Of a stretch of DNA of 64,000 bases, positions 35,094 to 44,174 are shown piece after piece. Position 1 is the stretch's first letter; each line of letters starts with the position of its first letter. The DNA lies in assembly GCA_024790105.1 (NCBI GenBank), contig GCA_024790105.1_3053.1, one strand, 5' to 3'. The stretch comes from a phage. The notes under the pieces are model-generated. The model was not told where the DNA came from and did no database searches. It saw only the letters and a list, made by a program, of their open reading frames with translations. The position numbers were made by a program, and so were the translations under genes.

Positions 35094-39251
<4,158 letters not shown>

Positions 39252-39282
39252 ATATATTAAAGCATATTAAAGAGGATTAAAA

Positions 39283-41262
39283 ATGACTTTATTATCTCCG
39301 GGCATTGAGCTCAAAGAAACTACGGTTCAAAGCACCGTGGTTAATAACTCTACTGGTACAGCAGCTTTGGCCGGTAAATTCCAGTGGGGTCCTGCTTTTC
39401 AAATTAAACAGGTTACAAATGAAGTAGATTTAGTTAATACTTTTGGTCAACCTACAGCTGAAACTGCTGACTATTTTATGTCTGCAATGAATTTCTTACA
39501 ATACGGAAATGATTTGCGAGTTGTGCGTGCTGTCGATAGAGATACCGCTAAAAACTCATCTCCGATTGCCGGTAATATTGAATACACTATTTCTACCCCA
39601 GGTAGTAACTACGCGGTTGGAGATAAAATCACGGTTAAGTATGTTTCAGAAGATGTTGAAACAGAATGTAAAGTTACCGAAGTAGATGCTGATGGAAAAA
39701 TTAAGAAAATTAATATTCCTACCGCAAAAATTATCGCTAAAGCTAAAGAAGTCGGTGAATATCCAGAATTAGGTTCTAACTGGACTGTGGAAATTTCTTC
39801 ATCTTCCTCTGGTTTAGCTGCAGTAATAACTCTTGGAAAAATTATTACTGATTCTGGTATTTTATTAGCTGAAATTGAAAATGCTGAAGCTGCCATGACA
39901 GCGGTTGACTTTCAAGCAAATCTCGAAAAATATGGAATTCCAGGAGTAGTAGCTCTTTATCCAGGCGAATTAGGCGATAAAATTGAAATTGAAATCGTAT
40001 CTAAAGCTGACTATGCAAAAGGAGCTTCTGCATTACTCCCAATTTATCCAGGTGGTGGTACTCGTGCATCTACTGCTAAAGCAGTGTTTGGATATGGACC
40101 ACAAACTGATTCACAGTACGCTATTATAGTTCGTCGTAATGATGCTATTGTTCAAAGCGTTGTTCTTTCAACTAAGCGTGGTGAAAAAGATATTTACGAT
40201 AGTAACATCTATATCGATGACTTTTTCGCAAAAGGTGGTTCAGAATATATTTTTGCAACTGCACAAAACTGGCCAGAAGGCTTCTCTGGAATTTTAACTC
40301 TGTCTGGTGGATTATCATCAAATGCTGAAGTAACAGCAGGAGATTTGATGGAAGCTTGGGACTTCTTTGCTGACCGTGAATCTGTTGACGTTCAACTGTT
40401 TATTGCGGGTTCTTGTGCCGGTGAATCTTTAGAAACAGCATCTACTGTCCAAAAACATGTTGTTTCAATCGGGGATGCTCGTCAAGATTGCTTAGTATTG
40501 TGCTCTCCTCCGCGTGAAACTGTAGTTGGAATTCCTGTAACTCGTGCTGTTGATAACTTAGTCAATTGGAGAACTGCAGCAGGTTCATACACTGATAATA
40601 ACTTTAATATCAGTTCAACCTACGCAGCAATCGACGGCAACTACAAATATCAGTATGACAAATACAATGATGTCAATCGCTGGGTTCCATTAGCAGCTGA
40701 TATTGCCGGTTTATGTGCAAGAACCGATAACGTTTCTCAGACTTGGATGTCTCCAGCTGGTTATAATCGCGGCCAGATTCTTAACGTTATTAAACTTGCT
40801 ATTGAAACTCGCCAAGCTCAGCGCGACCGTTTATACCAAGAAGCTATCAACCCAGTGACTGGTACAGGTGGTGATGGTTACGTATTATATGGTGATAAAA
40901 CAGCTACTTCTGTTCCTTCTCCATTTGATCGTATTAACGTTCGTCGTCTGTTTAATATGTTGAAAACGAATATCGGACGTAGTTCAAAATATCGTTTGTT
41001 CGAATTAAACAACGCGTTTACTCGTTCATCATTCCGCACAGAAACTGCCCAATACTTACAGGGAATTAAAGCTCTCGGCGGAATTTATGAATATCGTGTA
41101 GTTTGCGATACAACAAATAACACTCCGTCAGTAATTGATAGAAATGAGTTTGTTGCAACATTCTACATCCAACCGGCGCGCAGTATAAATTATATTACTT
41201 TGAATTTCGTCGCAACTGCTACTGGCGCAGATTTCGATGAGTTAACTGGTCTTGCAGGTTAA
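39283..41262 (+). CDS. 18: gp18 tail sheath protein
   Basis: 659 aa, as T4 gp18. Confidence 0.95.
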   Translation: MTLLSPGIELKETTVQSTVVNNSTGTAALAGKFQWGPAFQIKQVTNEVDLVNTFGQPTAETADYFMSAMNFLQYGNDLRVVRAVDRDTAKNSSPIAGNIEYTISTPGSNYAVGDKITVKYVSEDVETECKVTEVDADGKIKKINIPTAKIIAKAKEVGEYPELGSNWTVEISSSSSGLAAVITLGKIITDSGILLAEIENAEAAMTAVDFQANLEKYGIPGVVALYPGELGDKIEIEIVSKADYAKGASALLPIYPGGGTRASTAKAVFGYGPQTDSQYAIIVRRNDAIVQSVVLSTKRGEKDIYDSNIYIDDFFAKGGSEYIFATAQNWPEGFSGILTLSGGLSSNAEVTAGDLMEAWDFFADRESVDVQLFIAGSCAGESLETASTVQKHVVSIGDARQDCLVLCSPPRETVVGIPVTRAVDNLVNWRTAAGSYTDNNFNISSTYAAIDGNYKYQYDKYNDVNRWVPLAADIAGLCARTDNVSQTWMSPAGYNRGQILNVIKLAIETRQAQRDRLYQEAINPVTGTGGDGYVLYGDKTATSVPSPFDRINVRRLFNMLKTNIGRSSKYRLFELNNAFTRSSFRTETAQYLQGIKALGGIYEYRVVCDTTNNTPSVIDRNEFVATFYIQPARSINYITLNFVATATGADFDELTGLAG

Positions 41263-41269
41263 TTGATAT

Positions 41270-41285
41270 GGGGGCTTCGGCCCCT
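41270..41285 (+). promoter_or_regulatory. UUCG-tetraloop hairpin between gene 18 and the HNH gene
   Basis: gggggcttcggccccta hairpin 8 nt after the gp18 stop and just upstream of the HNH SD. Confidence 0.45.
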
Positions 41286-41301
41286 ATTCTCGAGGAATCA
41301 A

Positions 41302-41919
41302 GTGATTATTTCTAAATTTATTAAAGTGAAAATTGTACCATCAAATTTTAAACATTATCAATCAAAGGGTTATAAATTAACACCTCTTGGAGCGGTTAAA
41401 CATGGATTTAGGTATTATGAAATTGATGTTAAAGTTGAAGACATTAAAGGTAGTACCGCGTATGTAAAATGCCGTTGCGATAAATGTGGAATTGAATATA
41501 ACCAACGCATTGGAAGAAACACTGATATTTGTCGTGATTGCCGTCATAAAGATAAAATGCGCAATAATTCATATGGTTCCGCGAATAAAGGAAAAACAGT
41601 AGAATGTATGCATGGCGTAAATCATCCAAGATGGAACCCAAATAAATCTGAAATGTGTGAATATATTTCATTGGTATATAAAGAAACTCGTAAGCATAAG
41701 AAAATTTGGTCAAAATGGCCAAATGCTGATAAAATAGGAGTGTGTGGTACAAAAGGCGCTTACCAACTTGATCATAAGGTATCTATCAAATACGGTTTTG
41801 ATAATTTAATTCCTGCTAAAATAATTGGCGGTATTAATAATTTAGAAATAATCACTTGGGAATCTAACCGAGAAAAATCAAAAAGAAATAGTGTAGATCT
41901 TTGGGATTTACTAGAATGA
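41302..41919 (+). CDS. HNH homing endonuclease inserted between genes 18 and 19
   Basis: motif QLDHKVSIKYGFDNLIPAKIIGGINNLEIITWESNREKS plus Cys4 zinc motifs; no in-frame ATG near the 5' end, start assigned to GTG at 41302 preceded by GAGGA (alternative TTG at 41263). Confidence 0.7.
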   Translation: MIISKFIKVKIVPSNFKHYQSKGYKLTPLGAVKHGFRYYEIDVKVEDIKGSTAYVKCRCDKCGIEYNQRIGRNTDICRDCRHKDKMRNNSYGSANKGKTVECMHGVNHPRWNPNKSEMCEYISLVYKETRKHKKIWSKWPNADKIGVCGTKGAYQLDHKVSIKYGFDNLIPAKIIGGINNLEIITWESNREKSKRNSVDLWDLLE

Positions 41920-41925
41920 TTCTAA

Positions 41926-41943
41926 GGCCTGTTTCGGCAGGCC
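41926..41943 (+). terminator. hairpin after the HNH gene
   Basis: ggcctg-tttcgg-caggcc dyad immediately before a late promoter. Confidence 0.35.
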
Positions 41944-41944
41944 A

Positions 41945-42011
41945 TATAAATACACTATATCCTTAATTCTTTAATTCTATATGCCCTAGGTTAAACATAG
42001 GGATATAAATA
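41945..42011 (+). promoter_or_regulatory. two late promoters (TATAAATA) upstream of gene 19
   Basis: TATAAATA at 41945-41952 and 42004-42011. Confidence 0.6.
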
Positions 42012-42025
42012 CTACAGAGGCTAAT

Positions 42026-42517
42026 ATGTTTGTAGATGATGTAACACGAGCGTTTGAATCTGGTGATTTTGCTCGACCTAACTTATTCCAAGTAGAAATT
42101 TCTTATCTTGGACAAAATTTTACGTTTCAATGTAAAGCCACTGCTTTACCAGCTGGTATTGTAGAAAAAATTCCAGTCGGATTTATGAACCGTAAAATTA
42201 ATGTAGCAGGCGATCGTACATTCGATGACTGGACTGTTACAGTAATGAACGATGAGGCACATGATGCTCGCCAGAAGTTCGTTGATTGGCAAAGCATTGC
42301 TGCGGGACAAGGAAACGAAATTACTGGTGGAAAACCAGCAGAGTATAAAAAGAGCGCTATCGTTCGTCAATATGCTCGTGACGCTAAAACAGTAACAAAA
42401 GAAATTGAAATTAAAGGTCTGTGGCCTACTAACGTGGGTGAACTTCAATTAGATTGGGATTCAAACAATGAAATCCAAACATTTGAAGTAACTCTTGCTC
42501 TCGATTATTGGGAATAA
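42026..42517 (+). CDS. 19: gp19 tail tube protein
   Basis: 163 aa, as T4 gp19. Confidence 0.95.
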   Translation: MFVDDVTRAFESGDFARPNLFQVEISYLGQNFTFQCKATALPAGIVEKIPVGFMNRKINVAGDRTFDDWTVTVMNDEAHDARQKFVDWQSIAAGQGNEITGGKPAEYKKSAIVRQYARDAKTVTKEIEIKGLWPTNVGELQLDWDSNNEIQTFEVTLALDYWE

Positions 42518-42520
42518 AAT

Positions 42521-42545
42521 GAATGGGGAGAAATCCCCATCCTGC
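42521..42545 (+). terminator. GNRA-tetraloop hairpin after gene 19
   Basis: atgggga-gaaa-tccccat. Confidence 0.4.
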
Positions 42546-42549
42546 TTAA

Positions 42550-44174
<1,625 letters not shown>

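What the first reader, a model, noticed from the sequence alone, without database searches (positions are those of the whole stretch)
41263..41919. HNH endonuclease between tail sheath and tail tube genes has no conventional ATG start and is preceded by a stable hairpin
The ORF after gp18 is open from TTG at 41263, with a likely GTG start at 41302 preceded by GAGGA, and no in-frame ATG near the 5' end. A gggggcttcggcccc hairpin at 41270-41285 lies directly upstream. The ORF is followed by a hairpin and two TATAAATA late promoters for gene 19. The endonuclease therefore appears weakly translated from read-through gene 18 transcripts while gene 19 keeps its own promoters.
Basis: partly seen in the sequence, partly recalled or inferred. 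Interest (0 to 1): 0.4.

Follow-up and report, generated by a model that had tools for sequence, protein, structure and literature searches.

The report
Mobile nuclease gene between tail genes
A 657-base selfish-looking nuclease gene sits between the tail sheath and tail tube genes of this T4-like phage, carrying its own RNA hairpin and a weak GTG start codon, which is an ordinary kind of element but from an uncharacterised family that always occupies this one site.

Summary
The sequence features are real. The window is a Tequatrovirus, 99.3% identical to RB3 here. T4 lacks the ORF: 9 nt of T4 are replaced by a 657-nt cassette (41263-41919) placed between the gene 18 stop and gene 18's native 3' hairpin. 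The downstream hairpin and both TATAAATA boxes are therefore native gene 19 signals. The GGGGC-UUCG-GCCCC hairpin, the GAGGA and the GTG came in with the insert.

GTG 41302 is the best-supported start. Every homologue begins MII(S/T)K at this position. Eight to nine enterobacterial T4-like lineage groups keep SD+GTG although synonymous sites are saturated.

"No in-frame ATG" depends on one extra G that no database phage shares. RB3, T6 and ADUt have an in-frame ATG 33 nt upstream.

The gene is present in 120 of 502 Tequatrovirus records, as two alleles. It lies between sheath and tube genes even in distant T4-like phages.

Verdict: an uncharacterised free-standing homing-endonuclease-type gene. 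Expression by read-through with throttled initiation is plausible but untested.

The parts
39247..39254 (+). TATAAATA late promoter upstream of gene 18. It is the nearest upstream consensus late promoter that could supply transcripts reaching the ORF.
   Evidence: pattern scan; gene 18 starts at 39283
39283..41262 (+). Gene 18 (tail sheath), 659 aa, 98% identical to T4 gp18
41263..41919 (+). Inserted cassette relative to T4. It replaces the 9 nt 'tacggtgca' of the T4 18-19 spacer.
   Evidence: T4 empty site against the window and T6; 382 of 502 records have the intact empty site
41268..41287 (+). Hairpin hp1: core GGGGC-UUCG-GCCCC (41271-41284) with three outer pairs. It is part of the insert.
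   Evidence: -14.5 kcal/mol, z -3.0; same hairpin in Thanatos-2 and PSTRCR_121, and one compensatory pair in CkP1; absent from T4
41268..41315 (+). Out-of-frame ATG-initiated 15-codon uORF (MGASAPILEESSDYF*) overlapping the GTG start. In RB3, T6 and ADUt the same ATG is in frame with the ORF.
41292..41296 (+). Shine-Dalgarno GAGGA, 5 nt before the GTG and 4 nt after the hp1 stem
41302..41919 (+). gp19.1-family ORF, 205 aa, GTG start, TGA stop
   Evidence: phrog_5104, E 1.4e-90; RB3 annotation; dN/dS 0.13-0.18
41476..41541 (+). Cys4 zinc-ribbon / treble-clef-like motif (C59, C62, C77, C80) within the N-terminal putative DNA-binding domain
   Evidence: invariant Cys; DUF4379 hits in relatives; mS66 zinc domain
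41614..41916 (+). C-terminal nuclease-like domain. D157-H158 lie at 41770-41775, N180 at 41839-41841 and N189 at 41866-41868.
41926..41943 (+). Hairpin hp2 (GGCCUGU-UUCG-GCAGGCC). This is the native gene 18 3' hairpin, with the same sequence in T4.
41945..41952 (+). Distal TATAAATA late promoter of gene 19 (native, present in T4)
42004..42011 (+). Proximal TATAAATA late promoter of gene 19 (native, present in T4)
42026..42517 (+). Gene 19 (tail tube), 100% identical in protein to T4 gp19

Best explanation
The ORF is a free-standing homing-endonuclease-type gene of the uncharacterised 'gp19.1' family (the T6 name; PHROG 5104). The protein has an N-terminal beta/zinc-ribbon module, probably DNA-binding, joined to a C-terminal divergent HNH (His-Me finger) nuclease domain with D157-H158...N180...N189.

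It entered as a 657-bp cassette exactly between the gene 18 stop codon and gene 18's native 3' hairpin. The cassette carries its own C(UUCG)G hairpin, a GAGGA Shine-Dalgarno and a GTG start.

It has no recognisable promoter. Its mRNA therefore comes from late transcripts of gene 18 that pass hp1, which has no U tract. Translation starts at GTG 41302 from an accessible ribosome binding site. Output is held down by the GUG codon and by the stem ending only 4 nt before the SD.

hp1 gives gene 18 mRNA a stable 3' hairpin again, so decay or processing inside the insert does not reach the sheath message. Gene 19 is unaffected because its hairpin and two late promoters lie downstream of the insertion point.

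Shown: the insertion boundaries, the hairpin and its conservation, the position of the start, the conservation of GTG, purifying selection, and the sporadic, locus-specific distribution. Inferred: read-through transcription, low translation, nuclease activity, and homing.
For: Insertion:
- T4 has 'TAA tacggtgca ttctaaaGGCCTG...'. The window has TAA, then 657 nt, then 'ttctaaGGCCTG...'.
- The downstream 100 nt are identical to T4 except for one A.

Distribution:
- 382 of 502 Tequatrovirus records have the empty site and 120 are split.
- About 48 carry the RB3-type allele and about 70 the T6-type allele, whose middle is unalignable at DNA level. The two proteins are 52% identical.
- The family has one copy per genome in 245 of 50,697 phage records.
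- In every locus where flanks could be read it lies between sheath and tube genes, down to 37-48% gp18 identity. In L011 it is on the opposite strand.

Start codon:
- All 31 aligned homologues begin MII(S/T)K at the GTG position.
- Distant relatives have ATG there.
- GTG preceded by an SD is kept in Tequatrovirus (both alleles), Karamvirus KMB17, Jiaodavirus and other Klebsiella phages, Gaprivervirus VR7 and DCP80, Dhakavirus PSD9, QL01 and L011. In CkP1 (Karamvirus) and UTK0003 (Gelderlandvirus) GTG is kept but only a weak GGA precedes it.
- dS against the window is about 1.5-2.4, i.e. saturated.
- The leader varies from 35 to 72 nt and in frame: 38 nt in RB3, 39 nt here.

Hairpin:
- It folds stably.
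- The same 14 nt occur in the Shewanella phage Thanatos-2 and the Providencia phage PSTRCR_121. CkP1 has one G-C to C-G compensatory change.
- Other genera have different stable hairpins at the same place.

Protein:
- dN/dS is 0.13-0.18.
- D157, H158 and N180 are invariant, and N189, K192 and W186 are at least 90% conserved, in 148 relatives.
- The AF2 model has pLDDT 84 and a beta-beta-alpha unit.
- BFVD hits include annotated HNH and homing endonucleases.
- The same domain is fused to NUMOD3, HTH and zinc-ribbon modules in other phage ORFs.

Precedents: mobE read-through with a terminator and a downstream promoter, and the seg43(25) hairpin upstream of an unsequestered RBS (PMC2988022).
Against: - No Pfam or NCBIfam HNH model matches the window protein. 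Only 6 of 148 relatives weakly hit HNH_4 or HNH.
- No expression data exist here. hp1 is not terminator-like and does not lower SD/start accessibility, so the claimed throttling rests mainly on the GUG codon.
- The closest relatives have an in-frame ATG 33 nt upstream, 5-6 nt after the gene 18 stop. Re-initiation by ribosomes terminating on gene 18 could be the real route in them.
- A near-consensus TATAAATT at 41184-41191 inside gene 18 could be an unrecognised late promoter.
- No target site could be identified. The synonymous cluster in the gene 18 3' end is linked to the insert but not diagnostic of it.
Confidence: 0.6

Rival explanations
1. Translation is coupled to gene 18. Ribosomes terminating at the sheath stop codon re-initiate at the ATG 5-6 nt downstream, melt the hairpin, and in RB3/T6-type genomes make an 11-residue-longer protein. 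In this window the extra G turns that ATG into a 15-codon uORF ending 9 nt past the GTG, so expression here is altered, reduced, or dependent on re-initiation at the GTG.
For: - The ATG is in frame in RB3, T6 and ADUt, and an in-frame upstream ATG lies 2 nt after the sheath stop in Thanatos-2.
- Several distant relatives overlap the sheath stop (TAATG, TGATG) or start within 10-15 nt of it.
- Gene callers and the ADUt annotation use the ATG (P0001, 216 aa).
- The window's five-G run is unique.
Against: - The extension is not conserved in sequence, frame or presence. CkP1, UTK0003, PSTRCR_121 and all long-leader genera lack it.
- The ATG has no good SD and abuts a -14.5 kcal/mol stem.
- The GTG with its SD is the only start shared by all enterobacterial versions.
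- The window ORF stays intact from the GTG despite the frameshift.
Confidence: 0.2
2. The hairpin has nothing to do with the endonuclease. It is ordinary late-gene punctuation, a 3' end or stability hairpin for sheath mRNA. The GTG is neutral, so there is no special expression control.
For: - Gene, hairpin, late promoter, gene is the local pattern. T4 has a hairpin after gene 18 without the insert, and gene 19 is followed by a hairpin at 42521-42542 and then TATAAATA at 42565.
- hp1 does not touch the RBS.
- C(UUCG)G hairpins were first found in T4 mRNA (PMC4371310). The bare motif CTTCGG occurs 25 times in the window against 13.3 expected.
Against: - hp1 is absent from the T4 empty site and travels with the cassette.
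- It is retained with the ORF in phages whose synonymous sites are saturated.
- The G of the GTG is kept in eight to nine lineage groups where a neutral G/A site should have varied. Relatives with ATG mostly lack an SD.
- All six neighbouring late genes examined use ATG.
Confidence: 0.15
3. The gene is not a selfish homing element. It is a retained accessory nuclease of T4-like phages with a late function of its own, for example attacking co-infecting relatives or processing DNA. T4 has simply lost it.
For: - The position between sheath and tube is conserved down to 37-48% gp18 identity.
- The protein is under purifying selection.
- There is one copy per genome.
- The catalytic residues are intact.
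Against: - Only 24% of Tequatrovirus records carry it, with precise empty sites in the rest.
- Two alleles only 52% identical sit in flanks that are 98-99% identical.
- The gene's relatedness disagrees with that of gp18. CHI14 has gp18 72% but the ORF 38%. QL01 has 72% and 59%. L008 has 46% and 47%.
- The nuclease domain is shuffled onto NUMOD3, HTH and zinc modules, as is typical of homing endonucleases.
Confidence: 0.1

Closest known systems
T4 mobE (free-standing HNH homing endonuclease between nrdA and nrdB)
   Same: - It is a free-standing nuclease gene in an intergenic spacer between two conserved genes, in the same orientation as its neighbours.
- It has no promoter of its own, and expression depends on promoters of the upstream gene.
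- A stem-loop limits read-through.
- The downstream essential gene has its own promoter located after the insert (PMC2988022).
   Different: - The mobE terminator lies inside its 5' coding region and has a U tract, giving about 30% termination. Here the hairpin lies upstream of the SD and has no U tract.
- mobE matches Pfam-type HNH models and starts with AUG. This protein matches none and starts with GUG.
- The domain order differs: here the nuclease is C-terminal.
- No sequence similarity was detected between the two.
seg43(25) of Aeromonas phage 25
   Same: [quoted passage not shown] This is the same geometry as hp1 and GAGGA here.
   Different: seg43(25) is a GIY-YIG (segD-like) enzyme at a different locus. 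The regulatory effect of its hairpin is untested, as it is here.
Hairpin-regulated endonuclease genes I-TevI, I-TevII, I-TevIII, T4 segB and Aeh1 mobE
   Same: These are endonuclease genes of T-even phages whose output is restricted post-transcriptionally by RNA structure near the initiation region (PMC3014915; PMC2988022).
   Different: - In those genes the stem pairs with the SD and/or the AUG, and a late promoter inside the structure yields open transcripts.
- Here the stem does not include the SD or the start, and no promoter lies within it.
- Some relatives do resemble that design. Klebsiella phage leaders pair UCCU with the SD. VR7 and the Acinetobacter phages carry TATAAATA inside the hairpin.
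HNH / His-Me finger nucleases (Gme HNH 4H9D, phage GVE2 HNH 5H0O, Pfam PF01844)
   Same: - The pattern D-H-x3-S-x3-G...N-L...N-x2-K is present.
- A beta-beta-alpha unit is predicted.
   Different: - The loop between the His strand and the Asn strand is longer, with two short helices.
- There is no CxxC pair in the nuclease domain.
- Scores are below the threshold for every curated HNH model.

Membership tests
HNH (His-Me finger) nuclease superfamily | Beta-beta-alpha-metal core with the catalytic His at the end of the first strand | tested here: met
   The AF2 model (pLDDT 84; 82-96 in this domain) has a strand at 154-158 ending in D157-H158, a strand at 181-185 and a helix at 186-190. This is a prediction, not a solved structure.
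HNH (His-Me finger) nuclease superfamily | Conserved His plus Asn/Asn (or His) metal-site residues | tested here: met
   D157, H158 and N180 are invariant, and N189 and K192 are at least 90% conserved, across 148 relatives. They are also invariant in the 31-member family alignment.
HNH (His-Me finger) nuclease superfamily | Significant match to a curated HNH sequence model | tested here: not met
   The window protein has no HNH hit at E <= 1 in Pfam and none in NCBIfam. Among 148 relatives, 4 hit HNH_4 (best E 3.5e-4) and 2 hit PF01844 (best E 2.4e-3).
HNH (His-Me finger) nuclease superfamily | Structural similarity to solved HNH nucleases | tested here: inconclusive
HNH (His-Me finger) nuclease superfamily | Metal-dependent DNA nicking or cleavage | not testable with these tools
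   This needs purified protein.
Free-standing homing endonuclease genes of T-even phages | Sporadic presence at one precise site among close relatives | tested here: met
   382 records have the empty site and 120 the occupied site, out of 502. The boundaries against T4 are precise.
Free-standing homing endonuclease genes of T-even phages | Modular nuclease plus DNA-binding architecture, with domain shuffling | tested here: met
   The N-terminal region is a zinc-ribbon module. The same C-terminal domain is joined to NUMOD3, HTH_7/23/38, DUF4379 and DUF7487 in other phage ORFs.
Free-standing homing endonuclease genes of T-even phages | Cleaves the endonuclease-lacking allele near the insertion site | not testable with these tools
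   No target could be inferred. The synonymous cluster at 41178-41211 is linked to the insert but is also found in genomes without it.
Free-standing homing endonuclease genes of T-even phages | Preferential inheritance in mixed infection | not testable with these tools
   This needs phage crosses.
RBS-sequestering hairpin control (I-TevI / Aeh1 mobE type) | The stem pairs with the SD and/or the start codon | tested here: not met
   hp1 ends at 41287 and the SD starts at 41292. The mean unpaired probability over -14..+5 is 0.48-0.50, within the range of neighbouring late genes. The only SD-containing stem is -2.5 kcal/mol.
RBS-sequestering hairpin control (I-TevI / Aeh1 mobE type) | A promoter inside the structure gives open transcripts | tested here: not met
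   No TATAAATA lies in 41263-41301. The only sigma-70-like match (TTGATA-16-TATTCT, 9 of 12) would start transcription inside the SD.

The most novel reading that the evidence does not exclude
The gp19.1 genes form an old, locus-specific lineage of mobile nucleases that has tracked the sheath-tube junction across the whole T4 superfamily. Each copy travels with a leader that limits its own expression and insulates the host message. A stable hairpin re-caps the very abundant sheath mRNA. The initiation signal is deliberately handicapped, either as an SD with GUG or as an AUG with no SD or a near-leaderless late start. Selection would then act on the element to keep its cost low at one of the most highly expressed late loci.
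Probability: 0.3. Interest if true: 0.55.

Novelty: new member of a known kind. Interest (0 to 1): 0.35.

Why it matters
Free-standing endonuclease genes shape recombination and marker exclusion among T-even phages. The review literature says that for most of them translational control is not obvious and has not been addressed experimentally, and it lists only mobA as predicted to start with GUG (PMC2988022).

This family is common: a quarter of Tequatrovirus genomes, including T6 and RB3, and 888 sequence clusters for its nuclease domain. It is almost always annotated 'hypothetical'. It sits next to the two most abundant tail proteins.

It offers a simple, testable case of how a selfish gene can be carried at a highly expressed late locus without harming it. 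It also identifies a divergent HNH-like domain that curated models miss.

As a single locus it is not surprising to a specialist.

Tried and rejected
1. RBS sequestration by the strong hairpin. Rejected: the stem ends 4 nt before the SD, accessibility equals that of neighbouring genes, and the alternative SD stem is only -2.5 kcal/mol and altered in T6.
2. hp1 as a classical intrinsic terminator. Not supported: there is no U tract and the scan does not flag it.
3. A target-site or immunity signature. The last 90 nt of gene 18 hold 13 of the 91 differences from T4, all synonymous, at 41178-41211. That haplotype is in 108 records against about 48 RB3-type inserts. It occurs in UFV-AREG1 and T2, which are not among the RB3-type insert hits (UFV-AREG1 has the intact empty site), and is missing from the insert-bearing Ec_YwIITB1. 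It is linked to the insert but not diagnostic.
4. The same haplotype creates TATAAATT at 41184-41191. This is a possible late promoter, but I could not establish whether that variant is active.
5. The IPA-HNH family of Barth et al. is unrelated, despite the 'IPA' tripeptide here. That family has an N-terminal HNH plus AP2 domains.
6. Hef of phage U5. The paper is not held. The tblastn search finds one place per record (246 places in 245 records), so no second, paralogous copy turns up elsewhere in these genomes.
7. Rfam: no match in 41100-42100.
8. Foldseek against the PDB and sequence profiles against the PDB gave nothing for the nuclease domain. afdb50 was unavailable.
9. TTG 41263 as the start. 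Rejected because the RB3 leader is 38 nt, which puts that TTG out of frame.
10. A literature search for 'gp19.1' in T4-like phages found no description of the gene.
Full report
**What is in the sequence**

The window is a Tequatrovirus. The region 41000-42300 is 99.3% identical to phage RB3 and its siblings.

- Gene 18 (tail sheath) runs 39283-41262 and gene 19 (tail tube) runs 42026-42517.
- Between them an ORF is open from TTG 41263 to TGA 41919.
- GTG 41302 is in frame, with GAGGA at 41292-41296 five bases upstream.
- The first in-frame ATG is at 41557, which would remove the N-terminal 85 residues.
- GGGGC-UUCG-GCCCC (41271-41284) can extend to an 8-bp stem (41268-41287). It folds at -14.5 kcal/mol with z = -3.0.
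- After the stop there is a second UUCG hairpin (41926-41943; -12.8 kcal/mol, z = -3.4).
- TATAAATA boxes lie at 41945 and 42004.

**What is insert and what is native**

T4 has no gene here. T4 reads 'GGTTAA tacggtgca ttctaaaGGCCTGTTTCGGCAGGCCaTATAAATA...'. The window reads 'GGTTAA', then 657 nt, then 'ttctaaGGCCTG...'.

Everything from the second hairpin to gene 19, including both late promoters, is the same sequence as in T4 apart from one missing A. The downstream hairpin and the promoters are thus the ordinary gene 18 3' hairpin and gene 19 promoters. The upstream hairpin, the SD and the GTG belong to the inserted cassette. T6 carries the same arrangement with a different allele.

**Distribution**

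A probe across the T4 empty site finds 502 records. Of these, 382 have the site intact and 120 have it split. About 48 carry the RB3-type allele. About 70 carry the T6-type allele, whose ends are about 88% identical to the window but whose middle does not align. The two proteins are 52% identical.

Across all phage genomes the nuclease domain is found in 245 of 50,697 records, once per genome. In 57 IMG/VR loci and 18 database phages, the gene lies between the sheath and tube genes wherever flanks could be read. This holds even where gp18 is only 37-48% identical to the window's. In one locus (L011) it is on the opposite strand.

Its similarity does not track that of gp18. CHI14 has gp18 72% and the ORF 38%. 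QL01 has 72% and 59%. L008 has 46% and 47%. Both N-terminal subtypes occur within single genera (Karamvirus: CkP1 against KMB17; Tequatrovirus: RB3 against T6). Annotators of VR7 and UTK0003 call it 'gp19.1', after T6. Nearly all others call it hypothetical.

**The protein**

PHROGs places it in phrog_5104, function unknown. Pfam and NCBIfam give no HNH hit.

The gene is real. dN/dS is 0.13-0.18 against same-subtype orthologues, with dS near 2.

Evidence on the domains:

- The family alignment has an invariant Cys4 motif (C59, C62, C77, C80). It also has invariant D157, H158, N180 and N189.
- The AlphaFold model (pLDDT 84) has two domains. The C-terminal one contains a strand at 154-158 ending in D-H, a strand at 181-185 starting N-L, and a helix at 186-190 carrying N189.
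- BFVD returns family members, DUF7487 proteins, and several proteins annotated as HNH or homing endonuclease.
- The C-terminal 101 residues alone find 888 cluster representatives, always at the C-terminus. In 148 of them D157, H158 and N180 are invariant.
- Their N-terminal partners are NUMOD3, HTH_7/23/38, treble-clef zinc fingers and DUF7487. Six of the 148 weakly match Pfam HNH_4 or HNH.
- Foldseek against the PDB and a sequence profile against the PDB give nothing for this domain.

I conclude that this is a divergent HNH-like nuclease joined to a zinc-ribbon DNA-binding module. That is the beads-on-a-string design typical of phage homing endonucleases (PMC2988022). Membership of HNH is probable rather than proven.

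**The start codon**

All homologues begin MII(S/T)K at the position of GTG 41302. In distant relatives the codon there is ATG.

GTG is kept in both Tequatrovirus alleles, CkP1, KMB17, UTK0003, Roth21, Merci, RCIP0032, VR7, DCP80, PSD9, QL01 and L011. It is preceded by GAGGA, AAGGA, GGAGA or AGGAG, 5-8 nt upstream. In CkP1 and UTK0003 only a weak GGA precedes it.

Synonymous sites between these lineages are saturated. Retention of the G is therefore not what drift would give, although these lineages share ancestry and are not independent trials.

Relatives with ATG mostly have no SD (Thanatos-2, PSTRCR_121, L021, L025, L031, phiM7). Others have TATAAATA 5-6 nt before the ATG (CHI14, 005, HMGUkp2).

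The leader between the sheath stop and the start varies from 35 to 72 nt. In RB3 it is 38 nt against 39 nt here, which puts the TTG at 41263 out of frame in RB3. RB3's own annotation uses the GTG.

**The caveat on 'no ATG'**

RB3, T6 and ADUt have ATG 5-6 nt after the sheath stop, at the foot of the hairpin and in frame, 33 nt before the GTG. Gene callers and the ADUt record start there.

The window has one more G in the hairpin's 5' arm. This throws that ATG out of frame and makes a 15-codon uORF ending at 41315. No phage record shares this five-G version. It may be a real variant or a homopolymer error.

Either way, the frameshift tolerance argues that the extension is dispensable.

**What the hairpin does and does not do**

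It does not hide the ribosome binding site. The stem ends 4 nt before GAGGA. The mean unpaired probability of -14..+5 is 0.48-0.50, inside the range (0.42-0.70) of the gp15-gp20 initiation regions. The only stem involving the SD is worth -2.5 kcal/mol. It has no U tract and is not called terminator-like. Rfam has nothing here.

It is nonetheless conserved. The same 14 nt occur in Shewanella phage Thanatos-2 and Providencia phage PSTRCR_121. CkP1 has one G-C to C-G compensatory change. The long-leader genera have other stable hairpins at the same place.

Late genes here are generally punctuated as gene, hairpin, TATAAATA, gene. The most economical reading is that the cassette supplies a replacement 3' hairpin for sheath mRNA directly after the stop codon. 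Processing or decay within the insert then cannot reach gene 18, and the endonuclease ORF is left in a promoter-less interval between two hairpins. This is inference.

**Transcription**

No TATAAATA lies between 39247 (the gene 18 promoter) and 41945. Sigma-70-like matches are no more frequent than in shuffles (15 against 13.4).

A near-consensus TATAAATT at 41184-41191 is created by synonymous changes relative to T4. I could not judge its activity.

It is the design documented for T4 mobE between nrdA and nrdB (PMC2988022).

In Klebsiella phages, VR7/DCP80, PSD9/QL01 and KMB17, by contrast, a T4-early-like promoter (GTTTAC-17-TATAAT) abuts the hairpin. In the Klebsiella leaders an upstream UCCU pairs with the SD. 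The family thus uses several expression designs.

**Comparison with what is known**

The element works like a free-standing T-even homing endonuclease gene. Its expression layout resembles T4 mobE. Its hairpin geometry resembles seg43(25) of Aeromonas phage 25, whose function is equally untested. It differs from the RBS-sequestering hairpins of I-TevI, segB and Aeh1 mobE (PMC2988022, PMC3014915).

In T4 only mobA is predicted to use GUG. I found no paper describing gp19.1.

**Verdict**

The element is an uncharacterised member of a known kind. The comparative result is the part worth a modest follow-up: a hairpin plus a handicapped initiation signal, retained with a locus-specific nuclease gene across many T4-like genera.

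Noticed in passing
window 36399-39251: Gene 17 (large terminase) is split in three. ORF 36399-37292 is the gp17 N-terminal part (Terminase_6N) and ends ...IYIDEC|[13 protein letters not shown] 37279-37878 is a 199-aa zinc-ribbon plus TnsA-like / endonuclease I-like nuclease in another frame. ORF 37866-39251 begins with about 107 residues absent from T4 and RB3 gp17, ending ...VESHN|CAFIPNF, and then continues as gp17. It looks like a split intein with an endonuclease gene between the halves. It is present in 17 of 499 Tequatrovirus records, for example HY03, SG1 and pSe_SNUABM_01.
   Followed up: partly
window 41178-41211: A cluster of synonymous differences from T4 lies in the last 90 nt of gene 18 (13 of the gene's 91 differences). 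It creates TATAAATT at 41184-41191. The haplotype is linked to the insert, but it also occurs in UFV-AREG1 and T2, which are not among the RB3-type insert hits, and is absent from the insert-bearing Ec_YwIITB1.
   Followed up: partly
window 41260-41265: In this genome gene 18 and the ORF are in the same reading frame, separated only by the TAA stop (TAA TTG). In RB3 the leader is 1 nt shorter and the frames differ, so this is probably coincidental.
   Followed up: partly
L063 (Roth21) 331-402; L064 (Merci) 337-406: In Klebsiella phage leaders a T4-early-like promoter abuts a long hairpin whose base pairs an upstream UCCU with the AAGGA Shine-Dalgarno. Transcripts from that promoter would lack the anti-SD arm, whereas read-through transcripts would contain it. 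This is the I-TevI logic with the promoter classes reversed.
   Followed up: no
L006/L007 about 2440-2500; L067 (VR7) 480-505; L017, L020, L073: In the Acinetobacter phages and VR7, TATAAATA lies inside the hairpin that precedes the gene. In CHI14, vB_EcoM_005 and HMGUkp2, TATAAATA sits 5-6 nt before the ATG, which would give a nearly leaderless late mRNA.
   Followed up: no
L011 2501-3079: In one environmental contig the gene lies between the sheath and tube genes but on the opposite strand, with AGGAG and a GTG start.
   Followed up: no
window 42521-42542 and 42565-42572: Gene 19 is followed by a hairpin (GGGGA-GAAA-UCCCC core) and then a TATAAATA box for gene 20. This is the same gene, hairpin, late promoter punctuation as at the 18-19 junction.
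   Followed up: no
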